Virus record (IMG/VR): IMGVR_UViG_2681813318_000014
From: a virus
Lineage: Duplodnaviria; Heunggongvirae; Uroviricota; Caudoviricetes
Strand: one strand, 5' to 3'
Length of the DNA stretch: 21,605 bases
Below the pieces are notes generated by a model that made no database searches, was not told where the DNA came from, and saw nothing but the letters and a program-made list of their open reading frames with translations. Every line of letters starts with the position of its first letter. Positions within the stretch are counted from its first letter, which is position 1. A program made the position numbers and the translations under genes. Positions 2,023 through 21,605 of this stretch are shown here, piece by piece.

Positions 2023-2727
2023 ATGTCTATCCGTGATGAACATGAAATGATTATCGAAAACAAACCAAGTGCACTTGATATTCACGAATTAAGTTTGCGT
2101 GAATCTTTTGATAGAGCTTGGCGGGAATCACACGAAGTAAATAAAGGTCCATATATTCCACCAGAACCACTCGAGATTCCAAGAGTTGAAATTGATTTTT
2201 CTATGAACGAACGGTGTGAACTTGATTTGAAGTTGAAGCTACAACGCCGATATTTCCAAGCTATTAAAGACTCTCAAGAAGCAATGAGAAGTGTTTACGA
2301 GAAAATTCAGTCCAAGCTTGAAGACGAAATTGACGAAATGGCTATTTTGATGGAGCTTCAAACCAATTCTTATGCTTATTTCTCTCGACTAGACCGTGAC
2401 GGTTGGGGGTATGACCCTGTAGAGATTGGTAAAGTGATTGCAGATTTACCAGAAGGTCAAAGAGTTGTTCGTACAGAAAGAGCCATTAGAGCGCCACATC
2501 GACTGTCTCTAATTGTTGCTGATAAATCACAAGCTGAGCTTGAAGAAATTGCCAAAGAGAAACTGATGAAAGCAAGAGAAAATGAGATTAATTTGCTGAA
2601 ATCAAGACTGGCTAAGCTGATTAGTGACCATCAAGCGCTGGCTAAGGAGTACCGTCAAGAGTTGGCACAGATTATCAGCTTCAATGATTTTCTGAGTGTT
2701 CCACGAGAATTTAGCAAGGCTGTTTAA
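2023..2727 (+). CDS. hypothetical protein, charged/helical (234 aa)
   Basis: ATG 2023 with GAGGA RBS; composition rich in E/K/R/L suggests coiled coil; no recognised motif. Confidence 0.55.
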   Translation: MSIRDEHEMIIENKPSALDIHELSLRESFDRAWRESHEVNKGPYIPPEPLEIPRVEIDFSMNERCELDLKLKLQRRYFQAIKDSQEAMRSVYEKIQSKLEDEIDEMAILMELQTNSYAYFSRLDRDGWGYDPVEIGKVIADLPEGQRVVRTERAIRAPHRLSLIVADKSQAELEEIAKEKLMKARENEINLLKSRLAKLISDHQALAKEYRQELAQIISFNDFLSVPREFSKAV

Positions 2728-2749
2728 TTATGCATATGTGAGGTGATGA

Positions 2750-2965
2750 ATGATTGATTTAACAGAACGCTATGAAACTATTCGGTCTGTTTGTGAAAAC
2801 TTAAAGTTACAAACTAAACCAGCCTTAAGAATTAAAAGCAAACATCAAATTATCACCTCACGCAAACCAAAAACACGCAAGATTCCAAAGTGGTGTATCG
2901 ACCGTATCCCTTCCGATGCTCAAATTATAGGTGAAACGGAACTACATTATCTTGTCAGGCATTAA
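2750..2965 (+). CDS. small basic hypothetical protein (71 aa)
   Basis: ATG 2750 with GAGGTG RBS; K/R-rich. Confidence 0.45.
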   Translation: MIDLTERYETIRSVCENLKLQTKPALRIKSKHQIITSRKPKTRKIPKWCIDRIPSDAQIIGETELHYLVRH

Positions 2966-3062
2966 AAAAGAATGGTTGGGTGTATGAGATAGGTTCTATC
3001 GAATCTATAACACGGGGAGAGATTATCGAGTGATATCGGTAGTTTCTCCCTTTTTTGTATGT

Positions 3063-3129
3063 GTGCTACGTGAAATCTTCTGAACAGATATACCCACCAA
3101 AAATTATTTTTTACGTAGCTCACGCTTAA
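3063..3129. repeat. about 65-bp conserved element, copy A, immediately upstream of the tape-measure-like gene
   Basis: CTACGTGAA...ATACCCAC-CAAAAATTATTTTTTACGTAGCTCACGCTTAA; a 32-bp core is identical to copy B at 5326-5392; contains the internal inverted repeat GCTACGT...ACGTAGC about 41 bp apart. Confidence 0.6.
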
Positions 3130-3147
3130 AGAGGTGAAAAAATATGA

Positions 3148-5316
3148 ATGGCACAATTTAAAGTTGATGATTTTCTGATTGAGTTAAGTTTTAACTCTCA
3201 GAAAGTTTTAAAAGGCTTGGAAAAAGCCGAGAAACAAACGATGCAGGTAGCATCACGAATTGAGAAGCGATTGAATAAAGCTTTTAAAGTTAACCCTACG
3301 CCTTTAAATGATTCTCTCAAGGTCATGGAAAGAAATGTCGATAAAACTGTTTCCAAGATTGAGCAGCGTCTTAAAAACACTAGAGTGTTTAAGATTAAAA
3401 CGGAAATTGAGGATACTTTAAAGCCACTTAGACAACCAAGACAGCCACGAATTAGCGGCAACAGAGCAATCACAGCAGCTTACTCAGCGAATATGAGCAA
3501 GCTAAAAGGCTTTGACCCTATTTTGCAGAAATACATCAAATCTCAGTTTTACGGGCTATCTGCTAAAGCCGGGTCAATGGATAATTCAAAATTCAATGAG
3601 AAGCTGGCTCAGCTAAATGCTTCAGTCAGAGAAGCAATTGCTAAAGCTAAAGGTCATACATCCACCAGCATTAATAATACAAGCGACGCATTTAATAATC
3701 TTGCAAGCAATGCAATTAAGTTATCTGGTGCATTTTACTCTGTGATGGGTGCTCTTAACGCTTACAAGGCCATTATGAATGCAGGTCTTAAACGAGATTC
3801 CGCACAGAGAGCCGCTAAGTTTGTACTTGGTGATAAAGCATCTGAGGCTGAAACATTTATCAGGGGACTGGCTGACAAGACAGGTCTTAATATCTCTGAA
3901 GGGCTATCAAGCTACGCTAAGTTTGCAGCAGGTGCTCAGGGTTCTATGTCACAGGAACAGACACAGGAGCTATTTGGTAATGCAACGGCTATGAGTCGCT
4001 TAATGGGGCTTAGTAATGATGAGCTAAACGGCATTTTGAAAGCTTTTGAGCAGATGGCTTCTAAGGGCAAGATTCAGGCTGAAGAATTACGTGGGCAGTT
4101 AGGTGACCGTATGGCTGGTGCATTTAAGCTATTCGCTGAAGCACTGGGTATGACTGCTACAGAGCTTGATAAAGCGATGAAAGACGGGAAGATTTTAAGT
4201 AGTGATACTCTCCCTAAAGTCGCTAAACAGATGGGCTTGATGATTGATAAAGCGGGTGGCTGGGCTGAAGTCGCTAAGAGCACCCAGACAGCTTTAGGTA
4301 AGTTAGCAAACAACTGGGATGATACGATGGTGAAAATCTTCTCAGGTTCACAGGATGAGCTAAACGGCTTCTTATCCAGCCTGAGTAACCTGCTTAGTGA
4401 AATGGGGATGAGTTCTTCTATCGCTGGTGATGCTATCGGTGGGCTTATCGACATGCTTAAAGCTGGTGTAGATGATATTCGCGTATTCAATAACACCATT
4501 GAAGGCTGGATTTTACAGGTTAAAAAGTTCTATTACAGCCTTGATGACACTAAACGAAAACTACTTGATGAAGTCGGTGATGGTTTTATCAATTTTGTCA
4601 AAGGTCTTGCTATAGCGTTATCTGCAAAGACGCTATTCAGTGCCACTACAGGGGTTATGAACCTGACAAGAGCAATCACAACGTTAGGTACAAGAGCTAA
4701 TCAGGTGGCTGGTCAGGTAGCTACTGGTAAAGGTGGTGAAAAACTGAAAGGTGTAGCTGGTGGTGTAGGTAGTGCTCTTGCAATTGGTTATGCTGATGAC
4801 GGTTATGAAACAGCGTTAGCATTAGCTTCAATGATTCCACAAATCAGAGGTGTCACCCTTGGTTTATATGCATTGAAGAAAGCACTGGATTTTATGAATC
4901 AGGAAGTAGTCAAAAACGCTAACATGCATCCATCTGGGGTAGGTGTGGGTAGTGACTTTAATCCTGTGTATTCTGGTGACCCTAATAAACCGAATATGAT
5001 TAATGAAGGGTGGATTAAAATTTTTAGTTCAATGGGTGAATTGTTTAACAATGCCACAATGAATATTGCAAGATTCAATCATCCAGAATTAAACAACATT
5101 AAGCAAGAAGCATCACTAACCAGCGCAGATATTCAAAGTCTGAGGGATGAAATCTCTGCTTTAAGTAAGCGTATTCAGGAGCCTGTGAAAGTTTCACTTG
5201 GTGGTGAAGTTGCCATTAAACCAGATGAAACATCGTTTATGACCTTTAGCGGTAATATTTACGACCAATACGCAGAAGCTACGCTATTAAGTTCATCATT
5301 TCCAGAAGATGATTGA
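3148..5316 (+). CDS. tape-measure-domain protein (phage tail length tape measure-like), 722 aa
   Basis: Segment LKAFEQMASKGKIQAEELRGQLGDRMAGAFKLFAEALGMTATELDKAMKDGKILSSDTLP matches the conserved tape-measure motif as recalled from memory; central Gly/Ala-rich hydrophobic segments; GAGGTG RBS upstream. Confidence 0.7.
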   Translation: MAQFKVDDFLIELSFNSQKVLKGLEKAEKQTMQVASRIEKRLNKAFKVNPTPLNDSLKVMERNVDKTVSKIEQRLKNTRVFKIKTEIEDTLKPLRQPRQPRISGNRAITAAYSANMSKLKGFDPILQKYIKSQFYGLSAKAGSMDNSKFNEKLAQLNASVREAIAKAKGHTSTSINNTSDAFNNLASNAIKLSGAFYSVMGALNAYKAIMNAGLKRDSAQRAAKFVLGDKASEAETFIRGLADKTGLNISEGLSSYAKFAAGAQGSMSQEQTQELFGNATAMSRLMGLSNDELNGILKAFEQMASKGKIQAEELRGQLGDRMAGAFKLFAEALGMTATELDKAMKDGKILSSDTLPKVAKQMGLMIDKAGGWAEVAKSTQTALGKLANNWDDTMVKIFSGSQDELNGFLSSLSNLLSEMGMSSSIAGDAIGGLIDMLKAGVDDIRVFNNTIEGWILQVKKFYYSLDDTKRKLLDEVGDGFINFVKGLAIALSAKTLFSATTGVMNLTRAITTLGTRANQVAGQVATGKGGEKLKGVAGGVGSALAIGYADDGYETALALASMIPQIRGVTLGLYALKKALDFMNQEVVKNANMHPSGVGVGSDFNPVYSGDPNKPNMINEGWIKIFSSMGELFNNATMNIARFNHPELNNIKQEASLTSADIQSLRDEISALSKRIQEPVKVSLGGEVAIKPDETSFMTFSGNIYDQYAEATLLSSSFPEDD

Positions 5317-5325
5317 TTTAACGGT

Positions 5326-5392
5326 GTTCTACGTGAATAAAGCAAAGTTAATACCCACACCAAAAATTATTTTTTACGTAGCTCACGCTTAA
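5326..5392. repeat. about 65-bp conserved element, copy B, immediately upstream of the 5473 gene
   Basis: CTACGTGAA...ATACCCACACCAAAAATTATTTTTTACGTAGCTCACGCTTAA; same core and same internal inverted repeat as copy A. Confidence 0.6.
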
Positions 5393-5472
5393 CAGAGAAA
5401 ACACTTATATATCAAAGGCTTGGTTAAAAATGATTAAAATACACTAAGCCTTTGAAATCAAAGGAGAATTTA

Positions 5473-6261
5473 ATGATTTTTAGCAATCAAATCCGCTACA
5501 GTGGCAAAGATGGCATCTATTTCCACTTAAGAGATAATGTAGATGCCTTCTTAACTTTATCAGCTACTGAAAACATGGAATTTGACAGCCCTATGCAGGT
5601 CACTACACAAAACATGCAATCAGGGCAAACCGTCACAGATAATGTGCAAAGAGCACCCAGAACAATCACTATTAGTGGTGTCGTTGTAGTTGGCTATGAA
5701 GGGAGCTTATTATTAACTCGTCAGGGCCAGTTAGTAGAAAACTTCATCGACACTCTTGAAAGCTGGAGAGACCAGAAACAAATTATTTCAGTGATTTGTA
5801 AAGATGGTATCAAGATTGATGACTCAATTATTACCAACTTTAAAGCCTCTAAAGATGTTACTATCTCTAACGGTCTTCGTATCCAGCTAACTTTTCAGGA
5901 AATTAACTTCAAAGCCGTTGTGGGTCAAACTGATATTTCAGCAGCAACTGGAAAGACCGCTACTACAAATGATGGTGGTGTGACCAGTAAGAAGAATGCA
6001 GGTAACGTGACCACTGAACGCAATAACGCGCCTATGCTATCGTGCAAAGAGTTAATGAGTATTAACGATGTATCCGGTTACGCTCCAGCTATCAGAAATG
6101 ATATTCTCGATGCTCAGATTAAATGTAATAAGGCTTGGAAGCTGGATTATTCAGACTTAACAGAAGCTGAAAAAACCAACGTCACCAATGCTAACAGTAA
6201 CGCTGGTCGAGTAGCTTCAAAGCTTAAAAAGTACTCAGTGAACCCTCACAAAAAATACTAA
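5473..6261 (+). CDS. hypothetical beta-rich protein (262 aa), possibly a distal tail component
   Basis: ATG 5473 with AAGGAG 6 nt upstream (the track start at 5452 is a TTG with no RBS); position directly after a tape-measure gene; functional call is by position only. Confidence 0.5.
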
Positions 6262-6303
6262 ATCTCTACTACATCAACATCTATTAAACCCCTCTCAGTG
6301 ACT

Positions 6304-7782
6304 TCAGAAAGCGACTGTATAGCCTCTGTAACGTTGTCTGAGGGGTTTTCTGTTATTGGTAGGGTGGATTGACTTACTATTGTGAAAAGTTACTTTACAG
6401 CGACGTTTAGCAGTATTTAAAACGACCTCTTTAACAGCACTTTTGATTATCAGTTGTGCTTCAATCCTTCCCGCCTTTGTAGTCAAGTCACAATCAGACA
6501 AACACCCCACATCAATAGATTTAAGGCGTTGTGTCTCCTTCTCGATATCCGCATCAACCTGTGATAGCTCACCTTTTAACTGTTTTAGTTTGCTGGTAAT
6601 AGCGGACAAGTCTTCAATTTCAAGTGATAGCTGTACCAGCTTTTCAATATTGCTTGAGATGTGTTCACGGTGTAGCCTCAACATATCTATGGTATTCGTC
6701 ATATCGCTATCAAATCGGTCAAGACGAGATAGCAGGGTAAGTAATGTACCATCGGTTTGCTTACGTGACAGCCCTTTAGCACTACAACGGTTTTCATTAC
6801 GAAGAGGACAACGATAAATCCCGCTTCTTGTATCGCTAAAGCCTGTGATAATCAAAGCATGACCACATTCAGAACAACGGATAACACCTTTAAAGAGATT
6901 CACACTCAATGGTTTATCTGAAACAGGTTTTCTTCCATAACGAGAATATGATAGTTGCTGGACTTTGTAGAAATCAGTCTCAGGGATGATAGAGGGGAAA
7001 TAACCAGTTATCTCCTCACAGCCTTTAGGTGTGAAGTAACCAATTACAGAGCGATTCTTCAGAAGGTCTTGCACTGAGGTTTGACCAAACTTACCCGCTT
7101 TATATTGGTTAAGTGTCTGGTGACCTTCATCATTAAGAGTCCTGACAATCTCCCAGATAGACTTACCCTCTAACCGTAGCTGAAAGCACCTCTTCACAGT
7201 CTCCACTTTCTCAGGTATCACAGAGAAGCTTTTACGGTCATCATTCAGCCTTAACCATGCAGGACAACGCTTAGAAATCTTGATACCTTCAGAGATGAGT
7301 TCTTTTTTACGGTTCCATGCAGCTTGTATACGCTCAGACTTCCTCAAACTCTCCTCATGCGACCGCTGCATTATCAGAATGCTTTTAATCAGAGCTAACG
7401 GGTCTTTAAGAGATTCCCTTGTGTAATGTTCACCATCGGACAAGGTGACTACATCTACACCAGAGCGAAGAATGTTTCGTAATAGCTCACTTGCTCGGTC
7501 TACGTTCTGGCGTGACAAACGGTCAAGAGATTCTATCAAGAGCGTATCACCAGCTTTAACAAGCCCTTTCTCGATAGCGGTTAAAAAGTCACCTAAGCCA
7601 CCTTTCAAGTGCTTACCAGTAAACCCGCTAACGCCTAAATCACGGAAGGATAAATCTTGGTCAAGGTAGTACTCAGGATGAGCCTTAAGCCAGTCATTAA
7701 CCATCTTAGACTGTCTGCGTAGTGAATCACCTCGGGATTGCTTCTCAGATGAAAACCTGATGTAAGAAATGGCACGTTTCAT
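6304..7782 (-). CDS. large serine recombinase (integrase/resolvase family), 492 aa
   Basis: N-terminal resolvase-type catalytic region with Ser in AISYIRFSSEKQ; long recombinase domain; Cys-rich zinc-ribbon-like segment CSECGH...CP; C-terminal coiled coil; GGTGAGGTG RBS; at the edge of the AT-rich block next to chromosomal DNA. Confidence 0.85.
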   Translation of the reverse strand: MKRAISYIRFSSEKQSRGDSLRRQSKMVNDWLKAHPEYYLDQDLSFRDLGVSGFTGKHLKGGLGDFLTAIEKGLVKAGDTLLIESLDRLSRQNVDRASELLRNILRSGVDVVTLSDGEHYTRESLKDPLALIKSILIMQRSHEESLRKSERIQAAWNRKKELISEGIKISKRCPAWLRLNDDRKSFSVIPEKVETVKRCFQLRLEGKSIWEIVRTLNDEGHQTLNQYKAGKFGQTSVQDLLKNRSVIGYFTPKGCEEITGYFPSIIPETDFYKVQQLSYSRYGRKPVSDKPLSVNLFKGVIRCSECGHALIITGFSDTRSGIYRCPLRNENRCSAKGLSRKQTDGTLLTLLSRLDRFDSDMTNTIDMLRLHREHISSNIEKLVQLSLEIEDLSAITSKLKQLKGELSQVDADIEKETQRLKSIDVGCLSDCDLTTKAGRIEAQLIIKSAVKEVVLNTAKRRCKVTFHNSKSIHPTNNRKPLRQRYRGYTVAF

Positions 7783-8260: not shown

Positions 8261-9574
8261 TTAACTTACTGATTTTAATAAGCCTCTGGTGTCACTTTGG
8301 TGACTATGGGGCATCATTGGGACATAATCTGTCAGCTTCTGATTCAGCATTGCGATCTGTTCTGCATTGCTGTCAGTCATCCATGCTCCGTATACATTGA
8401 ATACCATCTGGGCACTTGCATGGCCCATCTGGCTGGCAATGAAGCTTGGGTTTGCTCCGGCAGATAATGACCAGCACGCATAAGTGTGTCGTGACTGGTA
8501 TGCCTTTCGATGCCTGATCCCTGCACGCTTAATGGCTGTTTCCCATGAGTCACCTACAGAATCGACTTTGTAGACAAAACCTACCTGTTCGCTTTTTCTA
8601 ACCACTTGAGGGTTAAACACGAAAGTACATTCATGGTTCACTGAACGTCCATATTCACGTAGTTGCACCTTGATGTTGTACTGCTTACCCAGTCTTGTCA
8701 TTTCAGCCTGATTTTTCAGGACACTGATAGCGGGCTGGATAAGGTGCACAACCCTGTTTGTGCTTGCTTCAGTTTTCGGTAGAGTGAACTCACCAAGTTT
8801 CGTATAATTGCGCCTGATGGTAATTGTTCCTGCCTTCAGATCGATATCTTCCCAGGCCAGGGAGACCAGTTCACCGTGACGCATTCCTGTGTACACAGCC
8901 AATGACCACAGGTTTTTCGTCTGCTGATGTCGGCAAGCATCTATCAGGCGAATAAATTCGTCACGAGTTAGCGGATCTGGCTCTGCCCTGGCTCTTTTAA
9001 GAGGCTTAATTCCCTGGAAGGGATTTGCTTCTAAGTAACCGTGATCTGCAGCAAACTGAAACATTCCAGCGATTGTCGTCATGTAATAATTTACAGTAAC
9101 GACGCTCCGTCCTTTTGCTGCTGCTTTGTTTTTCGTTGAATTCTGATACCCGGTAAGCAAATCTTTCCTGATATACAGCAATTCCTCTTTGGTTACCGAT
9201 GACACCAGTCTACTGCCTCCAATTTTCGGAACCATCGTTCTTGCAACGGATTCATAGCGATTGAATGCATTTGCAGAGATTTCCATTCGTTTCAGATCCA
9301 GCCACTTTTCTTCAAGTTCCTTCACCGTAATTTCTTTTTTACTTACCCCAAAAGCCTGAAGGTTGGGGGAGTCAGGGAACTGTGCAGCATAATCAAAGCT
9401 TCCTGTGCGGATGGCAAAACATACTGATGTCCGCAGTTCCCCGGCGATCTTCCTGTTCTTGGCAGTGTCAGGGACACCAAGATTTTCCCTGACACGTTTA
9501 CCGTTAAAATTAAACCAGATGCGTAATGTGCCGCCGTGGTTTTCGACGCCTGTTGGATATTTGACTTTATCCAT
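8261..9574 (-). CDS. int: phage tyrosine integrase (437 aa)
   Basis: C-terminal catalytic-region residues consistent with a tyrosine recombinase (AYQSRHTYA..., ...VYGAWM); N-terminal arm-type domain; GGAGGT RBS; immediately downstream of an excisionase-like gene on the same strand. Confidence 0.85.
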   Translation of the reverse strand: MDKVKYPTGVENHGGTLRIWFNFNGKRVRENLGVPDTAKNRKIAGELRTSVCFAIRTGSFDYAAQFPDSPNLQAFGVSKKEITVKELEEKWLDLKRMEISANAFNRYESVARTMVPKIGGSRLVSSVTKEELLYIRKDLLTGYQNSTKNKAAAKGRSVVTVNYYMTTIAGMFQFAADHGYLEANPFQGIKPLKRARAEPDPLTRDEFIRLIDACRHQQTKNLWSLAVYTGMRHGELVSLAWEDIDLKAGTITIRRNYTKLGEFTLPKTEASTNRVVHLIQPAISVLKNQAEMTRLGKQYNIKVQLREYGRSVNHECTFVFNPQVVRKSEQVGFVYKVDSVGDSWETAIKRAGIRHRKAYQSRHTYACWSLSAGANPSFIASQMGHASAQMVFNVYGAWMTDSNAEQIAMLNQKLTDYVPMMPHSHQSDTRGLLKSVS

Positions 9575-12380: not shown

Positions 12381-12559
12381 GTTGATGCTCTCCCGCCCCT
12401 GACAGACGCCAGGCCAGTCAATAAAGTATCCGCAATGCCTACCCTCAGACGTGCGCGCAGGATAAATGCCGTTATGACCCGGCAAATATATGCTACCCAT
12501 TCATCTTGCGTTGCCTGTTCCGCCGCCTCGCGCAGTGCCTGATAGTCAATCTTGCTCAC
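12377..12559 (-). CDS. short Ea22-like N-terminal-module protein (60 aa), possibly a recombination remnant
   Basis: GTG 12559 with AAGGAGG RBS; the first about 22 residues (MSKIDYQALREAAEQATQDEWVA) match the Ea22-like N-terminus, the rest is low-complexity; its 5' region is a DNA paralog of the 11877 gene start. Confidence 0.35.
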   Translation of the reverse strand: MSKIDYQALREAAEQATQDEWVAYICRVITAFILRARLRVGIADTLLTGLASVRGGRAST

Positions 12560-12860
12560 TGGCAGCCTCCTTTGCCGGGATTTCTAACTTTTGAGTGGTT
12601 GTATCAAATTCAAACAACTTAACCACGTCATCAAACAGGACATAATCACCATCAGGATCTTCAGTCATATCTGCGCCACAATCCTGACCGCACGAGTCGC
12701 AACCATCCATATCAAGCTCGTATCGCTTCAGGTTTGCGATATTTGATAAATTCAGCGCCAGTACAGCCAGGTCATAAACCTCTTCGGCAGTGACATCGCT
12801 GTTCAGTCCCATTTCATGGCGATATATGATTTTTTCTACTCGTTGTTTTGTGATCGTCAT
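12546..12860 (-). CDS. hypothetical phage protein (104 aa)
   Basis: Start moved to ATG 12860 (GGAGTG RBS 9 nt upstream); acidic C-terminus. Confidence 0.5.
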   Translation of the reverse strand: MTITKQRVEKIIYRHEMGLNSDVTAEEVYDLAVLALNLSNIANLKRYELDMDGCDSCGQDCGADMTEDPDGDYVLFDDVVKLFEFDTTTQKLEIPAKEAASEQD

Positions 12861-13131
12861 TTTTCTCTTCACTCCGATATACAAGGATTACTACACCCCC
12901 TCTGCTGATTGCGCGAGCTGGATCCCCTGGTTCCATGCCGTCAATTCCGAAGGCTTCGGAAAACGCATTCATTGCCTTCTGGCGTTCATCCTGCTTACGG
13001 CGTTTATTCCATTTTTTCAGGAACAACAGCGACAGCCACCGTCCGCTGCAGAACACGATGTAAAAATAACCAAGGAGCGCCAGGCCGACATTCAGGGCCG
13101 TTTCTATGGTTAGTTGTGAGTCAGTTGCCAT
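12814..13131 (-). CDS. small predicted membrane protein (105 aa)
   Basis: ATG 13131; N-terminal transmembrane-like segment LNVGLALLGYFYIVFCSG followed by a basic stretch KKWNKRRKQDERQK. Confidence 0.4.
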   Translation of the reverse strand: MATDSQLTIETALNVGLALLGYFYIVFCSGRWLSLLFLKKWNKRRKQDERQKAMNAFSEAFGIDGMEPGDPARAISRGGVVILVYRSEEKNDDHKTTSRKNHISP

Positions 13132-13369
13132 TTCTTACCTGTTTAAGTAACTGGTTGAACATAACACTTAGGGGATTGCTGTATCCAAACGGCAGATTGT
13201 TTACGCAGTACAGAATCATTTTGTTTTTTTCTCCAGTTCGTACTATTAACCCATTCCACAATAACCGTGATAATTCATTACTGATAGAAGTTGCGCTTCT
13301 TCCAAGTGCGAGGGATATATCTTCTCTACTGCAATCTGGATTTTCCTGGATATACTCGATAACGGTCAT
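13121..13369 (-). CDS. small winged-helix/HTH-like protein (82 aa)
   Basis: Start moved to ATG 13369 (AAGGGA RBS right after the upstream stop); segment CSREDISLALGRSATSISNELSRLLWNGLIV looks like an HTH. Confidence 0.45.
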   Translation of the reverse strand: MTVIEYIQENPDCSREDISLALGRSATSISNELSRLLWNGLIVRTGEKNKMILYCVNNLPFGYSNPLSVMFNQLLKQVRNGN

Positions 13370-13379
13370 GTGGTCCCTT

Positions 13380-13961
13380 TTACTTAATATCTGTTTCGGA
13401 TTGCATGCCATGAGTATTCATTTCGTTAATAATTTCATCCAGAAGGATTTCAAGCCCTTCTCGACCCATATCTGAAAGAATGAAACCTTTATCAGGGGAA
13501 GTAGTGAGCATTTTCTGATAAAGAAACAGCGCTCTTCCCATTCCTTCAGCTTCGCCGTATTTTTGAATTAAATTCCATTCAATATACTGTTGTAAGGCAA
13601 ATCGAATGGGGCCGGGATATATCGTCATAAACCCATACATCCCGTTATATACCACGGCGTGTTCAGTTGTTCCGTGTTCATTCAGGATATCAATTGTGCC
13701 GTTCTTGTCTTCTTCTTCGTTGATGAATGTCGTCACATACAACCATCGCCACTGAGCAACCTTCATCTCAACCGGAAGTTTACCCAGTAATCCTGCTTCG
13801 TCGGCTTGCGCCAGACACTGAAGGATACGTAAACCTCGCACATTAGGAGTATCGAATTCTCCGGCATCCAGACGACGTATGGCGTCGTGATAATCAATCG
13901 TCATACTGCCAGTTCGTATACCATTGGCTGTTGCTTCAGCCTGGAATTCATCGTATTGCAT
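13380..13961 (-). CDS. hypothetical protein (193 aa)
   Basis: ATG 13961 with GAGGAA RBS 8 nt upstream; no recognised motif. Confidence 0.55.
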   Translation of the reverse strand: MQYDEFQAEATANGIRTGSMTIDYHDAIRRLDAGEFDTPNVRGLRILQCLAQADEAGLLGKLPVEMKVAQWRWLYVTTFINEEEDKNGTIDILNEHGTTEHAVVYNGMYGFMTIYPGPIRFALQQYIEWNLIQKYGEAEGMGRALFLYQKMLTTSPDKGFILSDMGREGLEILLDEIINEMNTHGMQSETDIK

Positions 13962-13966
13962 GATAT

Positions 13967-14155
13967 TTATTCCTCATCTTCATCTTCATCTGCTGGTGCA
14001 ATAACGTCATATCCTGCCCTTTCTGCAATAAACAGGAATGTTGAAAGAGTTCCTACAAGTTCATCGTCATGAACATGGCGAATGAATATTACTTTCCCGT
14101 TTTTGATGGTCAGCAATATTCTGGTTTGTTCGTGTTCTGCTGTTTTCTGATGCAT
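13967..14155 (-). CDS. small acidic hypothetical protein (62 aa)
   Basis: ATG 14155 with GGGAGA RBS; C-terminal DEDEDEE tail. Confidence 0.45.
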   Translation of the reverse strand: MHQKTAEHEQTRILLTIKNGKVIFIRHVHDDELVGTLSTFLFIAERAGYDVIAPADEDEDEE

Positions 14156-14157
14156 TA

Positions 14158-14271
14158 TTATCTCCCGTATGCTTTACGCAGAAATAAGCAGGCAATATGC
14201 ATGTAATTTTCACCGTATTGTGCAATAAGGCAGGCGGTCTTGTGTGATGCCATATTCTTTATAAAAGTCAC
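14158..14271 (-). CDS. possible 37-aa ORF in the 195-bp intergenic region
   Basis: GTG start with AGGAGG RBS 7 nt upstream; stop overlaps the RBS of the next gene; weak. Confidence 0.2.
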   Translation of the reverse strand: MTFIKNMASHKTACLIAQYGENYMHIACLFLRKAYGR

Positions 14272-14304
14272 AATAAAGCCTCCTGTGGATTAAGGTTGTA
14301 ACAA

Positions 14305-14346
14305 TCCCCGGCGATAAAACCGCAATAAACGTTCAGGGCATATTTG
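14305..14346 (-). terminator. terminator-like hairpin after the 121-aa gene
   Basis: Minus-strand reading: GCAATAAC...GTTTATTGC stem starting 4 nt after the stop, followed by GGTTTTAT. Confidence 0.35.
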
Positions 14347-14349
14347 TTG

Positions 14350-14715
14350 TTATTGCGCTAATTCTTTTTCGGCAGCAGCTTTTGTATACTCACATGCAAA
14401 ACTCAGAATTTCGCTGCCGAGTGTTTTCGTTTCGTGATTACTGGACATATGTAATACCTGTGTTGCATGCAATAAATGATAAACATTTACCGCAAATGAA
14501 TCAGGCTCCAGACAAATGCCTTCGTAATTATCTTGCTGTGAGGTTGTTTCTGTCATTGCTCCTGAAGTGCATGCGAGCCTGTTTTTGACAATTCTCTTTT
14601 CTCTAATCACTATATCGGCAACATCTATTGCCTTTACAACCTCCGGGAGAAGTTCCGGGTTTGTATAATCAAAGTCATCAACATGGAGAACAGTTATGTT
14701 TTCGAACTTTTTCAT
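14350..14715 (-). CDS. hypothetical protein (121 aa), second gene of the cI-adjacent module
   Basis: ATG 14715 with GAGGAAG RBS 4 nt upstream; no recognised motif. Confidence 0.55.
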   Translation of the reverse strand: MKKFENITVLHVDDFDYTNPELLPEVVKAIDVADIVIREKRIVKNRLACTSGAMTETTSQQDNYEGICLEPDSFAVNVYHLLHATQVLHMSSNHETKTLGSEILSFACEYTKAAAEKELAQ

Positions 14716-14846
14716 GGCTTCCTCAGCTGACTTATATGTTCTGCTATATAGCGAGTCTCAGAAGTGTTTTCATATTGAGACTGTTTCCGCAATGATTGAT
14801 AAAAATGTTCGCATGTACCTTGAAGGGCGAAGCGGCGATTATGTCA

Positions 14847-15392
14847 CTATTGGTATTGGTTCTTCCGCAGAAGAGCTTCGCGAGATAAGGGGCAAACTTG
14901 TTGAGATGCGTCATGGTGTTGCTGCTCCTCACTTTTTGGTTGCTCCGGAGGAGTAACCTCACCAGTTAACAGCCACATCGGATCGCAGCCAAGAATATTT
15001 GCCAGTGGGATAAGCATACTGATAGTTGGTTCATACTCTCCGCTCTCCCACTGGATGATAATTTCTTCATCGAGATCGAGCAGCCTGGCGAGTTCGGCGG
15101 TTGTTAAGCCGCAGGCTTCGCGTTGGGTGCGAAGGTTAACCAGCCAGCTTTCAGGGAAGGATTGTTTTTGTTGTGCAGGAGAAGCAGCAGATAGAGCATA
15201 TTCATGGATAAATTCCATTACCTCAATGCCCAGTTCCTTTGAGCGAGCACAATCCAGAAGATGGAATGTGCGTACAGCACTTAGCAAATTTGCAATATTT
15301 AATGCAAAGGAATCAAGTTCTAAGCCCTTAAGCGTAACACAGCCGCAGTTGATAAAATTAGTTGTTTCTGGAGTTGCTTTTAGTGTCTTCAT
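14847..15392 (-). CDS. two-domain protein with C-terminal XRE-type helix-turn-helix (181 aa from ATG 15392)
   Basis: HTH segment LTTAELARLLDLDEEIIIQWESGEYEPTISMLIPLANILGCDPMWLL; the track start at 15422 is a TTG, the first ATG is at 15392; the N-terminal 90 residues are unassigned. Confidence 0.55.
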   Translation of the reverse strand: MKTLKATPETTNFINCGCVTLKGLELDSFALNIANLLSAVRTFHLLDCARSKELGIEVMEFIHEYALSAASPAQQKQSFPESWLVNLRTQREACGLTTAELARLLDLDEEIIIQWESGEYEPTISMLIPLANILGCDPMWLLTGEVTPPEQPKSEEQQHHDASQQVCPLSREALLRKNQYQ

Positions 15393-15444
15393 ATATCCGC
15401 CAACAATTTTAAATTGAATCAAATCAAGTTATAATTGATGGTGC

Positions 15445-15473
15445 GATATTATGTTTTGGGAAACAGGCTGTCA
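15445..15473 (-). promoter_or_regulatory. PL-like early-left promoter
   Basis: Minus strand TTGACA (complement of 15468-15473), 17-bp spacer, TAATAT (complement of 15445-15450); near-palindrome ATCAAGTTATAATTGAT at 15423-15439 just downstream, operator-like. Confidence 0.45.
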
Positions 15474-15503
15474 AGAAAAAATTGATATCGTATATTTCAG
15501 GCA

Positions 15504-15525
15504 GAAAAAAACGGGCAAAGCCCGT
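15504..15525 (-). terminator. intrinsic terminator after the cI gene
   Basis: Minus-strand hairpin ACGGGC-TTT-GCCCGT followed by a T7 run, 13 nt after the cI stop. Confidence 0.5.
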
Positions 15526-15537
15526 TAAAATCAAAGA

Positions 15538-16227
15538 CTAACCAAATCTGTTTATGTTGAATGGTACTGATGAGATCACTTTAGACTGGATATAAAGCAG
15601 AGCTAACCCCTCTTTTTCGATGCTCCATGGTTGATAATTGGGGTTATCAGATAACACCATGATTTTGCTTCCAATTTTTTGAAGCCTTTTCACGTAGCAT
15701 TCTCCATCAAAACAAAATGCATAAATACCATCGCCATCAAAATAAGTTACTGTCTTATCAAGAAAAAGAAGGTCGCCAGGTGAGATTGTGGGAGCCATAC
15801 TGTCTCCTCTGGCGTTACCTATTTCTATATTTTTGAATGCCCGATTTCCAACAAGACGTCGGGCATATTCAGGATCAAGTTCTATTGAGCGCACTACATC
15901 TATCAAGTCACCACGGACATGAGTTCCATCACCGCAACTAAACTCAACATCAAGGACATTAAATACGACGCTATCTGTTCTTGTCTGGTGTTTCTCTTGC
16001 GAGGAAAAGGTTGGTGAGGAGTCTTCACCTAAGAACCAGGATTGTGGATAACCGCTAATCTCTGATAAATGCGCGAGCTTATCACTCCGTGGAAATGTTT
16101 TTCCTGTTGTCCAGTACTGCACTGATTGCGCACTCACACCTAACTTGCGGGCCAGTTGAGCCTGAGTCCATCCTTTTGCTTTCAGCATCGCGGCTATTCG
16201 ATTTTCCGTGTTTTTGACGTTCTTCAT
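15538..16227 (-). CDS. cI: prophage repressor, cI-like (HTH plus LexA-type S24 peptidase domain), 229 aa
   Basis: N-terminal HTH (WTQAQLARKLGVSAQSVQYW); C-terminal autocleavage domain with Ser in GDSMAPT and Lys in VKRL; divergent from a cro-like gene; start moved to ATG 16227 (track start is TTG). Confidence 0.85.
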   Translation of the reverse strand: MKNVKNTENRIAAMLKAKGWTQAQLARKLGVSAQSVQYWTTGKTFPRSDKLAHLSEISGYPQSWFLGEDSSPTFSSQEKHQTRTDSVVFNVLDVEFSCGDGTHVRGDLIDVVRSIELDPEYARRLVGNRAFKNIEIGNARGDSMAPTISPGDLLFLDKTVTYFDGDGIYAFCFDGECYVKRLQKIGSKIMVLSDNPNYQPWSIEKEGLALLYIQSKVISSVPFNINRFG

Positions 16228-17847: not shown

Positions 17848-18232
17848 TCACTCAACATCAATAACGGGGAGCTGTTTCGCATAAAACGGCTCCGAAACAT
17901 CCAAGAACAGTTCTAAAGATATCAGCAGCTATATGATCATTTCAAGACCAAATATTGATTCTGCAATTTCGGGACGTTACACTGTCTCTGCACCTTATAA
18001 AGCGGGTGCCGGGGGTCGCAGCCCGGAATTGTCAACGGCGATATATGACGCGCCAGCGTCTTTTTTATCGTCCGCGCTCACGCACGCCAGAATTATGGTG
18101 GGCTGGGCAGGGGAGCCGAAAGGCTCGCCGGTCTCCGTTGACGCCGGTACTGCGAACCCTGTTCAGTCTGCCACCAGTGAGTTTCGCAGCTCCGGTGGTG
18201 GAAGTTTTCCACAGTCAACGGAGGCTGCCATC

Positions 18233-18784
18233 ATGGCTACGATCCCAACCCTCACTCAACCTGAAATTGCCATCGTTGATGGTCAGGCTGTTACTTCATC
18301 CCTGGCTGTTGCCAACTTCTTCTCCAAGCGTCATGACGATGTACTGAAAAAGATCCGCACGCTTGAATGCTCCGCATCATTCACTGCCCGCAATTTTTCG
18401 GTGAGTGATTACACCGATTGCACAGGCCGCAAACTACCTTGCTATCAAATCACCCGTGATGGCTTCGCGTTCCTTGCTATGGGCTTTACTGGCAAACGTG
18501 CAGCCCGGTTCAAAGAGGCATACATCAACGCCTTTAACCTGATGGAGAAGAGTTTATCAGGTGCCGATGCGTCTGATATGTCAGCTGTCGCACGAAACGC
18601 CAGAGGCGTATACCTGCATTTGCGTGAAATCCATCAAATCTGGACAAGCCAGCTTTATCCAATGCTTAAGGCCGTTGAATCTCCGCTGGCTAGCAAACTG
18701 TACGACCGTGTTGGTGATGCTGTTTTTGGCGCTGCACTTGTTGATTCCAGGCTGAATGGTTCTGACAAGGAGGTTCGCCCATGA
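18233..18784 (+). CDS. second Rha-family-like regulatory protein (183 aa)
   Basis: ATG 18233 with GGAGG 9 nt upstream; motif AVTSSLAVANFFSKRHDDVLKKIRTLE; the track's longer version (from 17933) adds a GC-rich low-complexity extension with no RBS. Confidence 0.65.
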   Translation: MATIPTLTQPEIAIVDGQAVTSSLAVANFFSKRHDDVLKKIRTLECSASFTARNFSVSDYTDCTGRKLPCYQITRDGFAFLAMGFTGKRAARFKEAYINAFNLMEKSLSGADASDMSAVARNARGVYLHLREIHQIWTSQLYPMLKAVESPLASKLYDRVGDAVFGAALVDSRLNGSDKEVRP

Positions 18785-19196: not shown

Positions 19197-19492
19197 ACTG
19201 TTTTCAGTTTGTGTGCGGATGTGCTTTCGATAACCCGATTCAGCGCCTAATTATGTTGCGTGTTTTGATGTCGGGTTCTTCAGACGGTGAAGGCGAGAGA
19301 GTTATTGATCATCAGGTGCTTGCTGATTTCTGCTGTTGTTCTAAGCAAGCGATATTCAGGGAAACCCTGGCACTGGAAAGAGCTGGTTATCTTCATATCC
19401 GAAAAATTGCAACGCTTACTATTGATGCAAAAGCCCGACTACAACCTGCGCGTGGCTACACAATTCTCATGCCGCGGAAGGAGGTTGTATGA
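19193..19492 (+). CDS. hypothetical protein, possible winged-helix DNA-binding (99 aa)
   Basis: GTG start in GTGA overlap with GGGAGGTG RBS. Confidence 0.45.
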   Translation: MNCFQFVCGCAFDNPIQRLIMLRVLMSGSSDGEGERVIDHQVLADFCCCSKQAIFRETLALERAGYLHIRKIATLTIDAKARLQPARGYTILMPRKEVV

Positions 19493-20514
19493 GCCGTTAC
19501 GCCCCCACACCGGAAGTTATGGCTATTGGTCAAATTAATATTTCCGGCAATGTTACACCTGCGAACTGGTGGAAATATATTCGACTACCCAGTGGGCGTC
19601 CGGATGCGACGGCTATCGCTCTGCTTTCAGAGATCGTTTACTGGTACCGCCCGACAGAGGTCAGGGATGAGCACACCGGAGCGTTGCTGGGATATCGCAA
19701 GCGTTTTCAGGGCGACAAACTGCAAAGAAGCTACCAGGCGTTTGCTGAGCAGTTTGGTTTCGGGAAAAGGGAAACCGCAGATGCGCTGAAGCGTCTGCGC
19801 GATGCAGGGTTTATTACTCTGGATTTACGCACGGTGGAAATGCTCGATGGGGTGAAATGCAGCAATATTTTGTTTGTCGGGATCAACCCACAGGCAATTG
19901 CGGCCATCACCACACCTTCTTCTGTTTCGCCAGAAAGTAACAGCAATAATGCAATCAGCGATACAGCTATTACGTTAAAACGGAACACCCCCCGACGTCA
20001 TAACGGAACAGGGGATACGCCGAATGTTGATACAAATACAGAGATTACTACAGAGATTACAACGGAGACTAAAAACACTATTGATGCATCCGCTGACGCG
20101 TCTGCGCGTTCTGCCCGACAGGAATATTCACCGGAATTTGAACAGGCCTGGCAGGAATATCCCAAACGTGCTGGTGGCAATTCCAAGTCAGCGGCCTTCA
20201 AAGCCTGGAAAGCCCGTATCAGGGAGGGAATAAAACCGGAGACCATGCTTGATGGCGTGAAGCGGTATGCCGCCTGGGTACGTGCTACAGGAAATACCGG
20301 CACACAGTTCGTGAAGCAGGCTGCGACGTTCTTTGGACCCGATCGTCACTTCGAAGATTACTGGCAACAGCCAGCCGCTCACGGAGGTGGGCGACAGCGA
20401 CAGGTCGATGTCCTGGCTGGCCTGGGAGCCATGTCTGACAAATTCGGTAAATCCAGTAACGAGGGAGCCACTTATATGTTGGGGAGGCAAAGCCTCCCGC
20501 AACATATCTTTTAG
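19489..20514 (+). CDS. phage replication-initiator/replisome-organiser-like protein (341 aa)
   Basis: ATG in ATGA overlap with AAGGAGG RBS; two domains joined by a Thr/Glu-rich linker that is encoded by tandem 12-bp repeats; overall resemblance to lambdoid O-type proteins is from memory. Confidence 0.55.
   Translation: MSRYAPTPEVMAIGQINISGNVTPANWWKYIRLPSGRPDATAIALLSEIVYWYRPTEVRDEHTGALLGYRKRFQGDKLQRSYQAFAEQFGFGKRETADALKRLRDAGFITLDLRTVEMLDGVKCSNILFVGINPQAIAAITTPSSVSPESNSNNAISDTAITLKRNTPRRHNGTGDTPNVDTNTEITTEITTETKNTIDASADASARSARQEYSPEFEQAWQEYPKRAGGNSKSAAFKAWKARIREGIKPETMLDGVKRYAAWVRATGNTGTQFVKQAATFFGPDRHFEDYWQQPAAHGGGRQRQVDVLAGLGAMSDKFGKSSNEGATYMLGRQSLPQHIF
20037..20072. repeat. three tandem 12-bp repeats inside the replication gene (possible origin iterons)
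   Basis: ACAGAGATTACT / ACAGAGATTACA / ACGGAGACTAAA, in frame (TEITTEITTETK). Confidence 0.3.
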
Positions 20515-20522
20515 TAATCAAA

Positions 20523-21605
20523 TTAGAACTGGTAAACCATACCTACAGCAACGATATCATCGGTAGCAACGCCAGATGCTTTCGTGAAATCGCTCTTATC
20601 AATCAGGTTGATTTTGTAATCAACAAAAGTGGACATATTTTTGTTGAAGTAATAGGTTGCACCTACATCAATATATTCAACCAGGTCCTGATCACCCCAC
20701 GCACCCAAGTCTTTTCCTTTAGATTGCAGGTAAGCAACGGACGGACGCAGACCGAAGTCGAACTGATATTGTGCAACTACTTCGAAGTTTTGTGCTTTGT
20801 TGGCAATATGGTTATTACCAAAAACAGTCATGTTCTGGGTTTCAGAATAGGTGGTAGCCAGATAGATGTTGTTCGCATCATATTTCAGACCAGCTGCCCA
20901 TACTTCAGCATTTTGACCAGATGCATTCAGGCTGTTGTTACCGTAGATAACCTGATTATTAGTGCGGTCAGATTTAGCATAGGTTGCACCTACACCGAAT
21001 CCTTCATACTCATAAGTAGTGGAGAAACCGAAACCATCACCATTAGCTTCAGTTACGTCAGTGCGGTCATTTTTACCCTGATACTGAGCAGCAAAGTTCA
21101 GACCATCAACCAGACCAAAGAAGTCGTTGTTACGATAAGTTGCAACACCAGTGGTGCGACCAGTCATGAACACATCTGTTTGGGTCCAGGTATCGCCACC
21201 GAATTCTGGCAGAACGTCAGTCCACGCACCGATGTCGTATGCTACACCGTAGTTACGGCCGTAATCGATTGAGCCGTAGTCACCGAATTTCAGGCCAGCG
21301 AAGGCAAGACGGGTTTTATCTTTGGAGGAACCTTGAGATTCAGCGCGGTTGCCTTTGAATTCATATTCCCACTGACCGAAACCAGTCAGTTGATCGTTGA
21401 TTTGGGTTTCACCTTTGAAGCCAAGACGGGCATAAGTAGTATCACCATCATCTGCATCATTAGAGGAGAAATAGTGCTTAGCATTAACTTTCCCGTACAG
21501 ATCCAGCTTGTTACTGTCTTTATTATAAATTTCAGCTGCCTGAGCAGACATCGCCATCAGTACTGATGCAGCTACAGCAGAAATTGCCACTGTTAATTTT
21601 TTCAT
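20523..21605 (-). CDS. nmpC: outer-membrane general porin, OmpC/OmpF/PhoE family (NmpC/Lc-like, prophage-associated), 360 aa
   Basis: Signal peptide [23 protein letters not shown] followed by AEIYNKD; porin-type YG/aromatic-rich beta-barrel composition; C-terminal ...VGMVYQF ending in Phe; the symbol is assigned from the prophage context and is not verified. Confidence 0.85.

What the first reader, a model, noticed from the sequence alone, without database searches (positions are those of the whole stretch)
13121..14155. Coupled block of three unknown genes ending in a small winged-helix protein
The 62-aa acidic protein, the 193-aa protein and the 82-aa HTH-like protein are packed with 5-10-nt gaps and RBSs embedded in the preceding stop region, then a small membrane protein follows. 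A small acidic protein, an enzyme-sized unknown and a DNA-binding protein could be an anti-defence or host-takeover set; function is not inferable from sequence.
Basis: inference. Interest (0 to 1): 0.4.

Follow-up and report, generated by a model that had tools for sequence, protein, structure and literature searches.

The report
Mosaic early-operon prophage genes, one Cnr-like
The three tightly packed genes are real early genes of an E. coli lambda-like prophage, but they are a patchwork of separately inherited pieces rather than one system, and the largest protein is a distant relative of Cnr, the protein that limits DNA replication of the satellite phage P4.

Summary
Observation confirmed. 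On the minus strand lie ORFs of 62 aa (14155-13967), 193 aa (13961-13380) and 82 aa (13369-13121), with 5- and 10-nt gaps and Shine-Dalgarno motifs in the upstream gene ends. DUF4752, a one-helix membrane protein, overlaps the 82-aa gene by 11 nt. All have dN/dS of 0.23-0.41.

The block lies in the early-left operon of a lambdoid prophage, between a cI-like repressor and xis/int. It is not one three-gene system. A mosaic joint falls at about 13403. The winged-helix gene and DUF4752 occur only in close relatives, whereas p37, p62 and p193 recur in diverged phages and satellite-like elements.

The 82-aa protein is a minimal winged helix, not a true MarR. The 193-aa protein gives a confident model with no known fold match. 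Profile comparisons show residues 61-184 are remotely homologous to phage P4 Cnr (DUF5375). In six satellite-like elements, family members occupy the cnr position, at most one gene upstream of the primase-helicase.

Most likely p193 binds a replication initiator; this is inferred, not shown. Anti-defence remains untested. Moderate interest.

The parts
14158..14271 (-). p37: 37-aa basic peptide (pI 9.5). GTG start preceded by AGGAGG. Its stop lies 2 nt before the p62 ATG. Function unknown.
   Evidence: ORF and sequence. Annotated as a CDS in Stx1_14040. Homologues in phiP27, phi467, Klebsiella KPP5665-2, Aeromonas AsXd-1, Fels-1 and others. dN/dS 0.23. No PHROG or Pfam hit.
13967..14155 (-). 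p62: 62-aa acidic protein. Core is a small beta-hairpin/strand/helix domain (residues ~11-47), followed by a non-conserved acidic tail.
   Evidence: phrog_340 (E 2e-22). The same domain matches the C-terminal part of two 'anti-repressor' PHROGs (1e-6 and 1e-3). No Pfam, NCBIfam, PADLOC or PDB match. AF2 model has low confidence (pLDDT 65) and its fold search gave nothing. In one satellite-like element it is fused to a DnaG-type zinc ribbon. dN/dS 0.41.
13380..13961 (-). p193: 193-aa acidic protein (phrog_1515). Residues 1-60 are an N-terminal extension with the family motif LDxGxYD. Residues 61-184 (window 13781-13410) form the Cnr-like core (WRW helix, three strands, 'YGxxxG' helix pair, hairpin, helix). 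Residues 185-193 are a variant tail that lacks the family's terminal PxxPVxH.
13121..13369 (-). p82: 82-aa minimal winged-helix-turn-helix protein. Start at 13369, not 13411.
   Evidence: phrog_1687 'MarR family' E 8e-24. Pfam MarR_2, HTH_24 and other families all fall below their gathering scores but all align to residues 2-55. Weak PDB profile hits are mostly winged-helix regulators. 45% identical homologues sit in the early operon of P2-like phages P88/Xuanwuvirus. Not annotated by PGAP in the >=99% identical genomes listed. dN/dS 0.25.
12814..13131 (-). DUF4752: 105-aa single-pass membrane protein. Its ATG overlaps the end of p82 by 11 nt.
   Evidence: Pfam DUF4752 E 7e-37 and phrog_667. 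Hydrophobic segment at residues 12-30. Shares its mosaic segment with p82.
13395..13411 (.). Approximate mosaic joint between the p37-p62-p193 segment and the p82-DUF4752 segment.
   Evidence: Stx2a-converting phages align only to query 704-1628, which is window 13403-14327. The p193 C-terminal tail differs between allele groups: SETDIK here, PEG-Q or PEAPVTH elsewhere.
15446..15474 (-). Candidate early-left (pL-type) promoter that would drive the whole leftward operon. Consensus match only.
   Evidence: TTGACA-17-TAATAT, 10 of 12 matches. It follows directly after a terminator-like hairpin at 15526-15510 that ends the cI-like gene. No terminator-like site with a good T run was found on the minus strand inside 14349-13121.

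Best explanation
The block is a stretch of the leftward early (pL-type) operon of a lambdoid E. coli prophage, related to phage PhiR49_2, to phiP27 and to Stx-converting phages annotated as inserted at yecE. The genes are translationally coupled because that is how such accessory regions are built. They are at least two independently exchanged modules, [p37-p62-p193] and [p82-DUF4752], not one three-component machine.

p193 is the informative part. Its core (residues 61-184) is a remote homologue of Cnr (ORF106, DUF5375) of satellite phage P4. Cnr is the copy-number regulator encoded immediately upstream of the primase-helicase/initiator alpha. By my recollection of Ziegelin et al. 1997, it acts by binding alpha.

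I therefore propose that p193 is a protein-binding regulator of a replication initiator or primase-helicase. Its added N-terminal domain could give a second contact. Its target could be the phage's own replication machinery or that of a co-resident satellite.

p62 is a small protein-interaction domain that travels with p193 in many elements. It can be fused to a primase zinc ribbon or to antirepressors, so it is likely an adaptor in the same or a parallel process.

p82 is a stand-alone minimal winged-helix DNA binder and DUF4752 is a small membrane protein. Both are unrelated passengers.

Shown: gene structure, operon position, mosaicism, winged-helix core, Cnr-type profile similarity, and the cnr-like position of family members in satellite-like elements. 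Inferred: binding to a replication protein, the identity of the target, and any role of p62.
For: Context:
- Order on the minus strand is cI-like repressor (S24 peptidase + HTH), terminator, promoter-like site, XRE regulator, p121, p37, p62, p193, p82, DUF4752, Ead/Ea22, DUF4222, xis, int.
- p193 homologues in phiP27, phi467, Klebsiella KPP5665-2, Aeromonas AsXd-1 and another prophage sit in the same leftward operon. Repressor and integrase are annotated in four of these five loci. AsXd-1 has only hypothetical annotations.

Mosaicism.

Cnr link:
- An HMM built only from 42 p193-family members hits P4 Cnr and all 56 Cnr orthologues fetched. E-values are 1e-4 to 0.08 in 5,078 ORFs. Nothing unrelated scores below E = 1.
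- The reverse Cnr HMM returns mostly p193-family proteins as its top sub-threshold hits, generally at one region (best E 0.003).
- hhalign of the p193 family against Cnr gives probability 66-70% and P 4-6e-5.
- Adding a bridging ~120-aa family raises this to probability 88%, P 3e-6, over 89 columns spanning Cnr 11-101. That bridging family matches p193 residues 61-184 at probability 96%, P 2e-9.
- 200 column-shuffles of the Cnr alignment give scores of 11.4 +/- 2.1 (maximum 19.3), against a real score of 38.7.
- Cnr ends in APVLH and the p193 family ends in PxxPVxH.

Position: in six distinct satellite-like elements, a p193-family gene lies directly or one small gene upstream of the primase-helicase. 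Five of the six show an integrase and/or AlpA and/or Ash within the fetched flanks. The helicase is of DUF927, Toprim-DUF927 or Toprim-D5_N-Pox_D5 type. This matches the position of cnr in P4 (epsilon, orf151, cnr, alpha). No DUF5375 gene was found within the fetched flanks of those elements.

Literature: cnr controls P4 plasmid copy number, and the cnr family is present in 90% of P4-like elements between epsilon and alpha (PMC8628076).

p62: it co-occurs with p193 in 7 of 12 independent contexts and is fused to a DnaG-type zinc ribbon in one.
Against: - Pfam DUF5375 itself does not hit p193 even at E = 10. The homology rests on profile-level evidence with modest bit scores (13-20 bits per sequence).
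- No structure of Cnr was available to compare, and no further prediction jobs remained.
- In the window and in the other lambdoid prophages, p193 is not next to a replication gene.
- The replication modules of these phages differ. phiP27 has DnaC + DnaB, as does the SF-088 prophage that is identical to the window over this block. KPP5665-2 and phi467 have an SF2 helicase + primase. There is thus no obvious common partner.
- The window allele has lost the conserved C-terminal PVxH motif shared with Cnr.
- The co-occurrence of p62 and p193 is confounded by relatedness of the phages.
- No experiment bears on any of these proteins.
Confidence: 0.45

Rival explanations
1. This is the null reading. 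The genes are functionally unrelated, individually exchangeable accessory genes of the early-left region. The Cnr resemblance reflects only a shared small protein-binding fold and implies no replication role for the lambdoid copies.
For: - The region is mosaic.
- p193 in lambdoid phages is never adjacent to replication genes, and those modules differ between phages.
- The window allele lacks the shared C-terminal motif.
- The bridging ~120-aa paralogues also sit among miscellaneous small early genes.
Against: - The cnr-like position next to the primase-helicase recurs in six diverged satellite-like elements.
- p62 is fused to a primase zinc ribbon in one element.
- Purifying selection acts on the window allele.
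Confidence: 0.3
2. p62, p193 and p82 act together as an anti-defence or host-takeover set: a small acidic inhibitor or mimic, an effector, and a DNA-binding regulator.
For: - Early-left operons of lambdoid phages are where such genes lie (established knowledge: lambda gam, ral, kil).
- p62 and p193 are acidic (pI 4.7 and 4.6).
- None of the proteins has a known function.
- p62 and p193 co-occur in 7 of 12 contexts.
Against: - p82 is not a conserved partner (1 of 12 contexts) and sits across a mosaic joint.
- The acidic tail of p62 is not conserved.
- There is no enzyme-like conservation or fold in p193.
- Family members occupy the replication-control slot of satellite-like elements, which suggests a housekeeping role for the element rather than counter-defence.
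- No match was found in one published accessory-gene screen's supplements.
Confidence: 0.12
3. The block is a prophage-encoded defence or toxin-antitoxin module expressed in the lysogen, with p82 as autoregulator, p193 as effector and p62 as antitoxin.
For: - The layout superficially resembles some TA or abortive-infection systems: a small acidic protein, a larger protein and an HTH protein.
- p82 gives weak hits to the winged-helix domains of CARF/Csa3-type PADLOC models.
Against: - PADLOC gives no hit for p62 or p193.
- There is no own promoter or terminator signal. The genes lie inside the leftward early operon, which would be repressed in a lysogen if it is controlled as in lambda.
- The parts are not inherited together.
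- The PADLOC hits to p82 cover only the generic winged-helix part.
Confidence: 0.03

Closest known systems
Cnr (ORF106, Pfam DUF5375) of satellite phage P4
   Same: - Significant profile-profile similarity covers Cnr residues 11-101 and p193 residues ~61-184.
- Both are acidic helical/hairpin modules with a 'YGxxxG'-type helix pair, and the families share a C-terminal PV.H end.
- In satellite-like elements, p193-family genes occupy the same slot as cnr, just upstream of the primase-helicase.
   Different: - p193 is nearly twice as long. It has a 60-residue N-terminal extension (LDxGxYD motif) and a three-strand insertion.
- It fails the Pfam DUF5375 model.
- The window copy lies in a lambdoid early-left operon far from any replication gene and has lost the PV.H tail.
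- No functional data exist.
MarR-family transcription regulators
   Same: The winged-helix-turn-helix core of p82 aligns to the DNA-binding part of MarR_2, MarR, HTH_24, HTH_27 and TrmB models and to MarR/ArsR/PafC structures. Some databases name it MarR.
   Different: - It is 82 aa rather than ~140-150 aa, so there is no room for the N- and C-terminal dimerisation helices.
- All Pfam scores are below gathering thresholds (MarR_2 22.9 against 27; MarR 14.3 against 24.6).
- It is better described as a minimal phage winged-helix protein (phrog_1687).
Accessory genes of lambdoid early-left operons (lambda ea/b-region and exo-xis region; Ead/Ea22, DUF4222, DUF4752)
   Same: - Same location between the immunity region and xis/int.
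- Same strand as int.
- Same tight packing and mosaic exchange.
- Neighbours include Ead/Ea22-like and DUF4222 proteins.
   Different: None of p37, p62, p193 or p82 is homologous to a characterised lambda, P22 or 933W early-left gene in the libraries searched.
C-terminal module of phage 'anti-repressor' families phrog_4792 and phrog_2379
   Same: p62 residues ~5-53 match the C-terminal 40-50 positions of these profiles (E 1e-6 and 1e-3).
   Different: p62 is the domain alone, without the N-terminal Bro/KilA/Rha-type parts. The function of that C-terminal module is itself unknown. No Pfam antirepressor domain is hit.

Membership tests
P4 Cnr / DUF5375 | Scores above the Pfam DUF5375 gathering threshold | tested here: not met
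   P4 Cnr scores 210.9 bits. p193, P0076 and the ~120-aa paralogues give no DUF5375 hit even at E <= 10.
P4 Cnr / DUF5375 | Detectable homology to Cnr at profile level | tested here: met
   - The A3 HMM hits all 57 Cnr sequences and nothing unrelated.
- hhalign gives probability 66-88% and P 6e-5 to 3e-6.
- 0 of 200 column-shuffles reach the real score.
P4 Cnr / DUF5375 | Gene located immediately upstream of the primase-helicase (alpha) gene | tested here: not met
   Not met for the window copy or the other lambdoid copies. Met for family members in six satellite-like elements.
P4 Cnr / DUF5375 | Small (~106 aa) single-domain protein ending in PV.H | tested here: not met
   p193 is 193 aa with an extra N-terminal domain. 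The family ends in PxxPVxH but the window allele ends in SETDIK.
P4 Cnr / DUF5375 | Binds the initiator alpha and limits replication or copy number | not testable with these tools
   This needs interaction and copy-number assays. The function of cnr is taken from PMC8628076 and from my recollection of Terzano et al. 1994 and Ziegelin et al. 1997, which were not held in the library.
MarR family (p82) | Pfam MarR or MarR_2 at or above the gathering score | tested here: not met
   For the 96-aa form, MarR_2 scores 22.9 against 27 and MarR 14.3 against 24.6. The 82-aa form scores 21.4 and 14.1.
MarR family (p82) | Dimerisation helices flanking the winged helix (about 140-150 aa in total) | tested here: not met
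   The protein is 82 aa. The winged-helix alignments already use residues 2-62, leaving about 20 residues.
Winged-helix-turn-helix DNA-binding domain (p82) | Sequence matches to several independent winged-helix models over the same residues | tested here: met
   - phrog_1687 matches at E 8e-24.
- Nine Pfam winged-helix/HTH families and eight NCBIfam families hit, nearly all over the N-terminal ~55-65 residues.
- The weak PDB hits are mostly winged-helix regulators.
DUF4752 (following membrane protein) | Pfam DUF4752 above the gathering score, and one transmembrane segment | tested here: met
   125.8 bits against a threshold of 27. Hydrophobic maximum at residues 12-30.
Known anti-phage defence systems (PADLOC) | Any component matches a PADLOC model over its characteristic domain | tested here: not met
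   There are no hits for p62, p193, DUF4752 or p121. p82 matches only the generic winged-helix ends of CARF/CasR/Csa3 models.
Lambdoid early-left (pL) operon accessory region | Lies between the cI-type repressor and xis/int on the int strand, with no internal terminator | tested here: met
   Gene order is shown. Transcription itself was not measured.

The most novel reading that the evidence does not exclude
Lambdoid phages are the helpers exploited by enterobacterial PICI-type satellites. They may have captured a Cnr-like replication regulator from satellites and express it early, with p62 as partner. It would bind and restrain, or otherwise tune, the primase-helicase of a co-resident satellite. 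This would be a phage-encoded anti-satellite countermeasure acting at replication initiation.
Probability: 0.1. Interest if true: 0.7.

Novelty: new variant of a known kind. Interest (0 to 1): 0.35.

Why it matters
The block as a whole is an ordinary piece of a lambdoid early-left accessory region, so the original 'three-gene system' idea does not stand.

The useful results are three:
- A widespread orphan family now has a testable lead. This is phrog_1515, with about 100 clusters at 50% identity, present in 203 of 5,426 complete E. coli genomes and in Stx-converting phages. Its core is Cnr-like, and in satellite-like elements it sits where the replication copy-number regulator sits.
- This links lambdoid prophage accessory genes to the replication-control genes of P4-like and PICI-like elements. 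It suggests experiments on phage-satellite interplay.
- A conserved 82-aa winged-helix gene is left unannotated by PGAP in the near-identical RefSeq E. coli genomes that were listed.

Tried and rejected
- Direct family searches for p62 and p193 (Pfam, NCBIfam, PADLOC, PDB sequences) gave nothing usable.
- The p62 model has low confidence (pLDDT 65), so its PDB fold search is meaningless.
- P4 ORF151, the other gene between epsilon and alpha, was tested as a possible p193 relative and rejected (hhalign probability 0.1%).
- A DNA-mimic reading of p62 was rejected as a family property, because the acidic tail is absent in phiP27 and other homologues.
- The search for related loci with family alignments failed for lack of a conserved 7-10 residue stretch. 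One single-protein scan found nothing.
- Sequence strings were searched in the supplements of the Silas et al. accessory-gene screen, with no match.
- A repeat scan of 12400-15600 found no operator-like repeats.
- Rfam found no RNA family inside the block.
- The primary papers on the Cnr mechanism were not in the library.
Full report
**1. What is there**

All genes of the finding are on the minus strand.

- p62 runs 14155-13967, p193 runs 13961-13380 and p82 runs 13369-13121.
- The gaps are 5 nt and 10 nt.
- GAGGA (13975-13971) lies in the last codons of p62. AAGGGA (13379-13374) directly follows the p193 stop.
- The mechanical ORF list extends p82 to 96 aa from ATG 13411. That start has no ribosome-binding site, and the homologues start at the 82-aa position.
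- The next gene, DUF4752 (13131-12814), overlaps p82 by 11 nt. It has one hydrophobic helix.
It is a 37-aa ORF (14271-14158) with a GTG start after AGGAGG, ending 2 nt before the p62 ATG. It is annotated in a Stx1a phage and conserved as far as an Aeromonas phage.
- Against orthologues in Stx1a phage Stx1_14040 (92.5% DNA identity), dN/dS is 0.23-0.41 for all five genes. They are real coding genes.

**2. Where it is**

- The 1.7-kb region is 100% identical to several E. coli chromosomes, 99.9% identical to phage PhiR49_2, and 92.5% identical to Stx1a phages annotated as inserted at yecE.
- In strain SF-088 the prophage sits beside yecE.
- Gene order on the minus strand is: cI-like repressor (HTH + S24 peptidase, 16233-15538), terminator-like hairpin, promoter-like TTGACA-17-TAATAT (15474-15446), XRE regulator, p121, p37, p62, p193, p82, DUF4752, a 104-aa protein, Ead/Ea22-like proteins, DUF4222, xis, tyrosine integrase.
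- This is the early-left (pL-type) operon of a lambdoid prophage. Transcription was not measured.

**3. Is it one system?**

No.

- Stx2a-converting phages share only window ~13403-14327, that is p37, p62 and p193. Homology breaks at the 3' end of p193. The C-terminal tail of p193 differs between allele groups accordingly.
- I examined 12 independent genomic contexts of p193-family genes. Six were lambdoid or temperate-phage early operons and six were satellite-like elements. p82 and DUF4752 are present only in the window type. A p62-family gene is present in 7 of the 12, often with other small genes in between. p37 is present in five of the six phage-type contexts.
- By megablast, the p193 gene is in 203 and the p82 gene in 140 of 5,426 complete E. 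coli genomes.
- p82 homologues at 45% identity lie in the early operon of P2-like phages (P88, Xuanwuvirus) with other neighbours.
- The block is therefore a mosaic of [p37-p62-p193] and [p82-DUF4752].

**4. The individual proteins**

*p82.*
- It matches phrog_1687 'MarR family' at E 8e-24. It also matches nine Pfam and eight NCBIfam winged-helix families, nearly all over the N-terminal ~55-65 residues, but every one scores below its curated threshold.
- Weak PDB profile hits are mostly winged-helix regulators.
- At 82 aa it cannot hold MarR dimerisation helices. It is a minimal winged-helix protein, not a MarR-family member.

*p62.*
- It belongs to phrog_340. The domain also forms the C-terminal part of two 'anti-repressor' PHROGs.
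- In one satellite-like element it is fused to a DnaG-type zinc ribbon.
- Its acidic tail is not conserved.
- The AF2 model is weak (pLDDT 65) and shows a hairpin, a strand and a helix.

*p193.*
- It belongs to phrog_1515 (E 3e-90) and hits no other library.
- A profile search of 1.84 billion representatives finds only 101 proteins. Most full-length members are stand-alone proteins of ~200 aa, and the rest are mainly fragments. Ten sampled members carry no relevant Pfam domain.
- Across 42 diverged members the near-invariant positions are L31, G34, D37 (LDxGxYD), R72-W73 (WRW), Y105, R120, E128, Y148, G166 and a C-terminal His. This is not an obvious catalytic set.

**5. The lead: p193 is Cnr-like**

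*Position.*
- In six diverged satellite-like elements, the p193-family gene lies directly or one small gene upstream of the primase-helicase. Five of the six show an integrase and/or AlpA and/or Ash within the fetched flanks.
- The helicase is DUF927, Toprim-DUF927, or Toprim-D5_N-Pox_D5 as in P4 alpha.
- In P4 that slot is occupied by cnr: the order is epsilon, orf151, cnr, alpha.

*Sequence evidence.*
- The HMM of the p193 family hits P4 Cnr residues 39-101.
- It hits all 56 Cnr orthologues retrieved from genomes. No unrelated ORF among 5,078 scores below E = 1.
- The reverse Cnr HMM lists mostly p193-family proteins as its best sub-threshold hits, generally at the same region.
- hhalign gives probability 66-70%.
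- A ~120-135-aa paralogue family lies between the p37 and p62 homologues in phi467, KPP5665-2 and AsXd-1. It matches p193 residues 61-184 at probability 96% (P 2e-9).
- With that family added, the match to Cnr rises to probability 88% (P 3e-6) over Cnr residues 11-101.
- In 200 column-shuffles of the Cnr alignment the score never exceeded 19.3 for that profile and 20.6 for the p193-family alignment alone. The real scores are 38.7 and 33.0.
- Cnr ends in APVLH and the p193 family ends in PxxPVxH.
- P4 ORF151 shows no similarity.
- Pfam DUF5375 itself does not reach p193, so this is remote homology, not family membership.

*Known function.* cnr controls the copy number of P4's plasmid stage. Its family is in 90% of P4-like elements between epsilon and alpha (PMC8628076). 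That Cnr acts by binding alpha is my recollection of Ziegelin et al. 1997. That paper was not held in the library.

**6. Mechanism proposed**

- p193 is most likely a protein-binding regulator of a replication initiator or primase-helicase, with an extra N-terminal domain. p62 may be an adaptor in the same process. Both points are inferred.
- Against it: in lambdoid phages p193 is not next to replication genes. Those modules differ between phages, being DnaC + DnaB in phiP27 and the SF-088 prophage, and SF2 helicase + primase in KPP5665-2 and phi467. The window allele also lacks the PVxH end.
- The null rival is that these are unrelated accessory genes and the Cnr fold is merely reused. It remains substantial.
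- The anti-defence reading is untested. It is weakened by the mosaicism and by the housekeeping-like position of family members in satellite-like elements.
- A defence or toxin-antitoxin reading has no support.

**7. Verdict**

- The 'three-gene set' interpretation is not supported.
- The region is an ordinary mosaic early-left accessory region.
- The added value is a testable remote link between an orphan prophage family and P4 Cnr.
- Interest is moderate to low (0.35). I rate it a new variant of a known kind.

Noticed in passing
window 14158-14271 (-): A conserved 37-aa basic micro-ORF (p37) is coupled to p62. It has no PHROG or Pfam family. Homologues lie in early-left regions of phiP27, phi467, Fels-1, and Cronobacter, Klebsiella and Aeromonas phages, often near the repressor gene.
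   Followed up: partly
window 13121-13369 (-): In the near-identical RefSeq E. coli genomes that were listed (121 genomes are >=99% identical), PGAP annotates no gene for the 82-aa winged-helix protein. Only the overlapping DUF4752 CDS appears under the match. GenBank Stx-phage records call the gene MarR.
   Followed up: partly
window 14350-14715 (-) and 14847-15422 (-): The C-terminal half of p121 (residues 69-115) is 43% identical to the N-terminal domain (residues 34-80) of the adjacent XRE/'CII-like' regulator, but p121 lacks the HTH. It could be a decoy or partner of that regulator.
   Followed up: partly
L006 2156-2515; L003 1790-2155; L004 1952-2374; L010 6151-6528; L019 2162-2566: This is a ~120-135-aa protein family with no Pfam hit. 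It is homologous to p193 residues 61-184 and, more weakly, to P4 Cnr. In three phages it sits between the p37 and p62 homologues.
   Followed up: partly
L019 222-626 and L020 216-620: A 134-aa protein fuses a DnaG-type CHC2 zinc ribbon to a p62-family domain. It lies in an element that carries a DUF927 helicase, SSB and a p193-family gene.
   Followed up: partly
window 17990-18178 (+): Rfam isrK (17990-18066) and C4 antisense RNA (18091-18178) both score above gathering. They overlap the 5' part of an Ash + Rha-domain gene (17933-18784). This resembles a P1/P7-type C4-controlled antirepressor arrangement inside this lambdoid prophage.
   Followed up: no
window 20523-21605 (-) and 19489-20514 (+): The prophage appears truncated on the right. 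After a 341-aa replication-region ORF the next gene is an OmpC-type porin on the opposite strand. A related genome has about 4 kb more here, including the helicase and a DUF968 gene. No complete E. coli genome in the collection holds >=80% of the window contiguously.
   Followed up: partly
window 2023-7782: Tail genes (tape-measure protein 3148-5316, Dit-like 5452-6261) and a large serine recombinase (6304-7782, minus strand) lie directly left of the tyrosine integrase (8261-9574). This suggests tandem or composite prophages. The same arrangement occurs at ~95% identity in strain JKHS016.
   Followed up: no
window 13383-13409 (-): The window allele of p193 ends in GMQSETDIK, whereas the family's near-invariant ending is G-x-P-x-x-P-V-x-H. 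The replacement coincides with the mosaic joint to the p82 module. The same variant tail is kept in the Stx1a-phage allele.
   Followed up: partly
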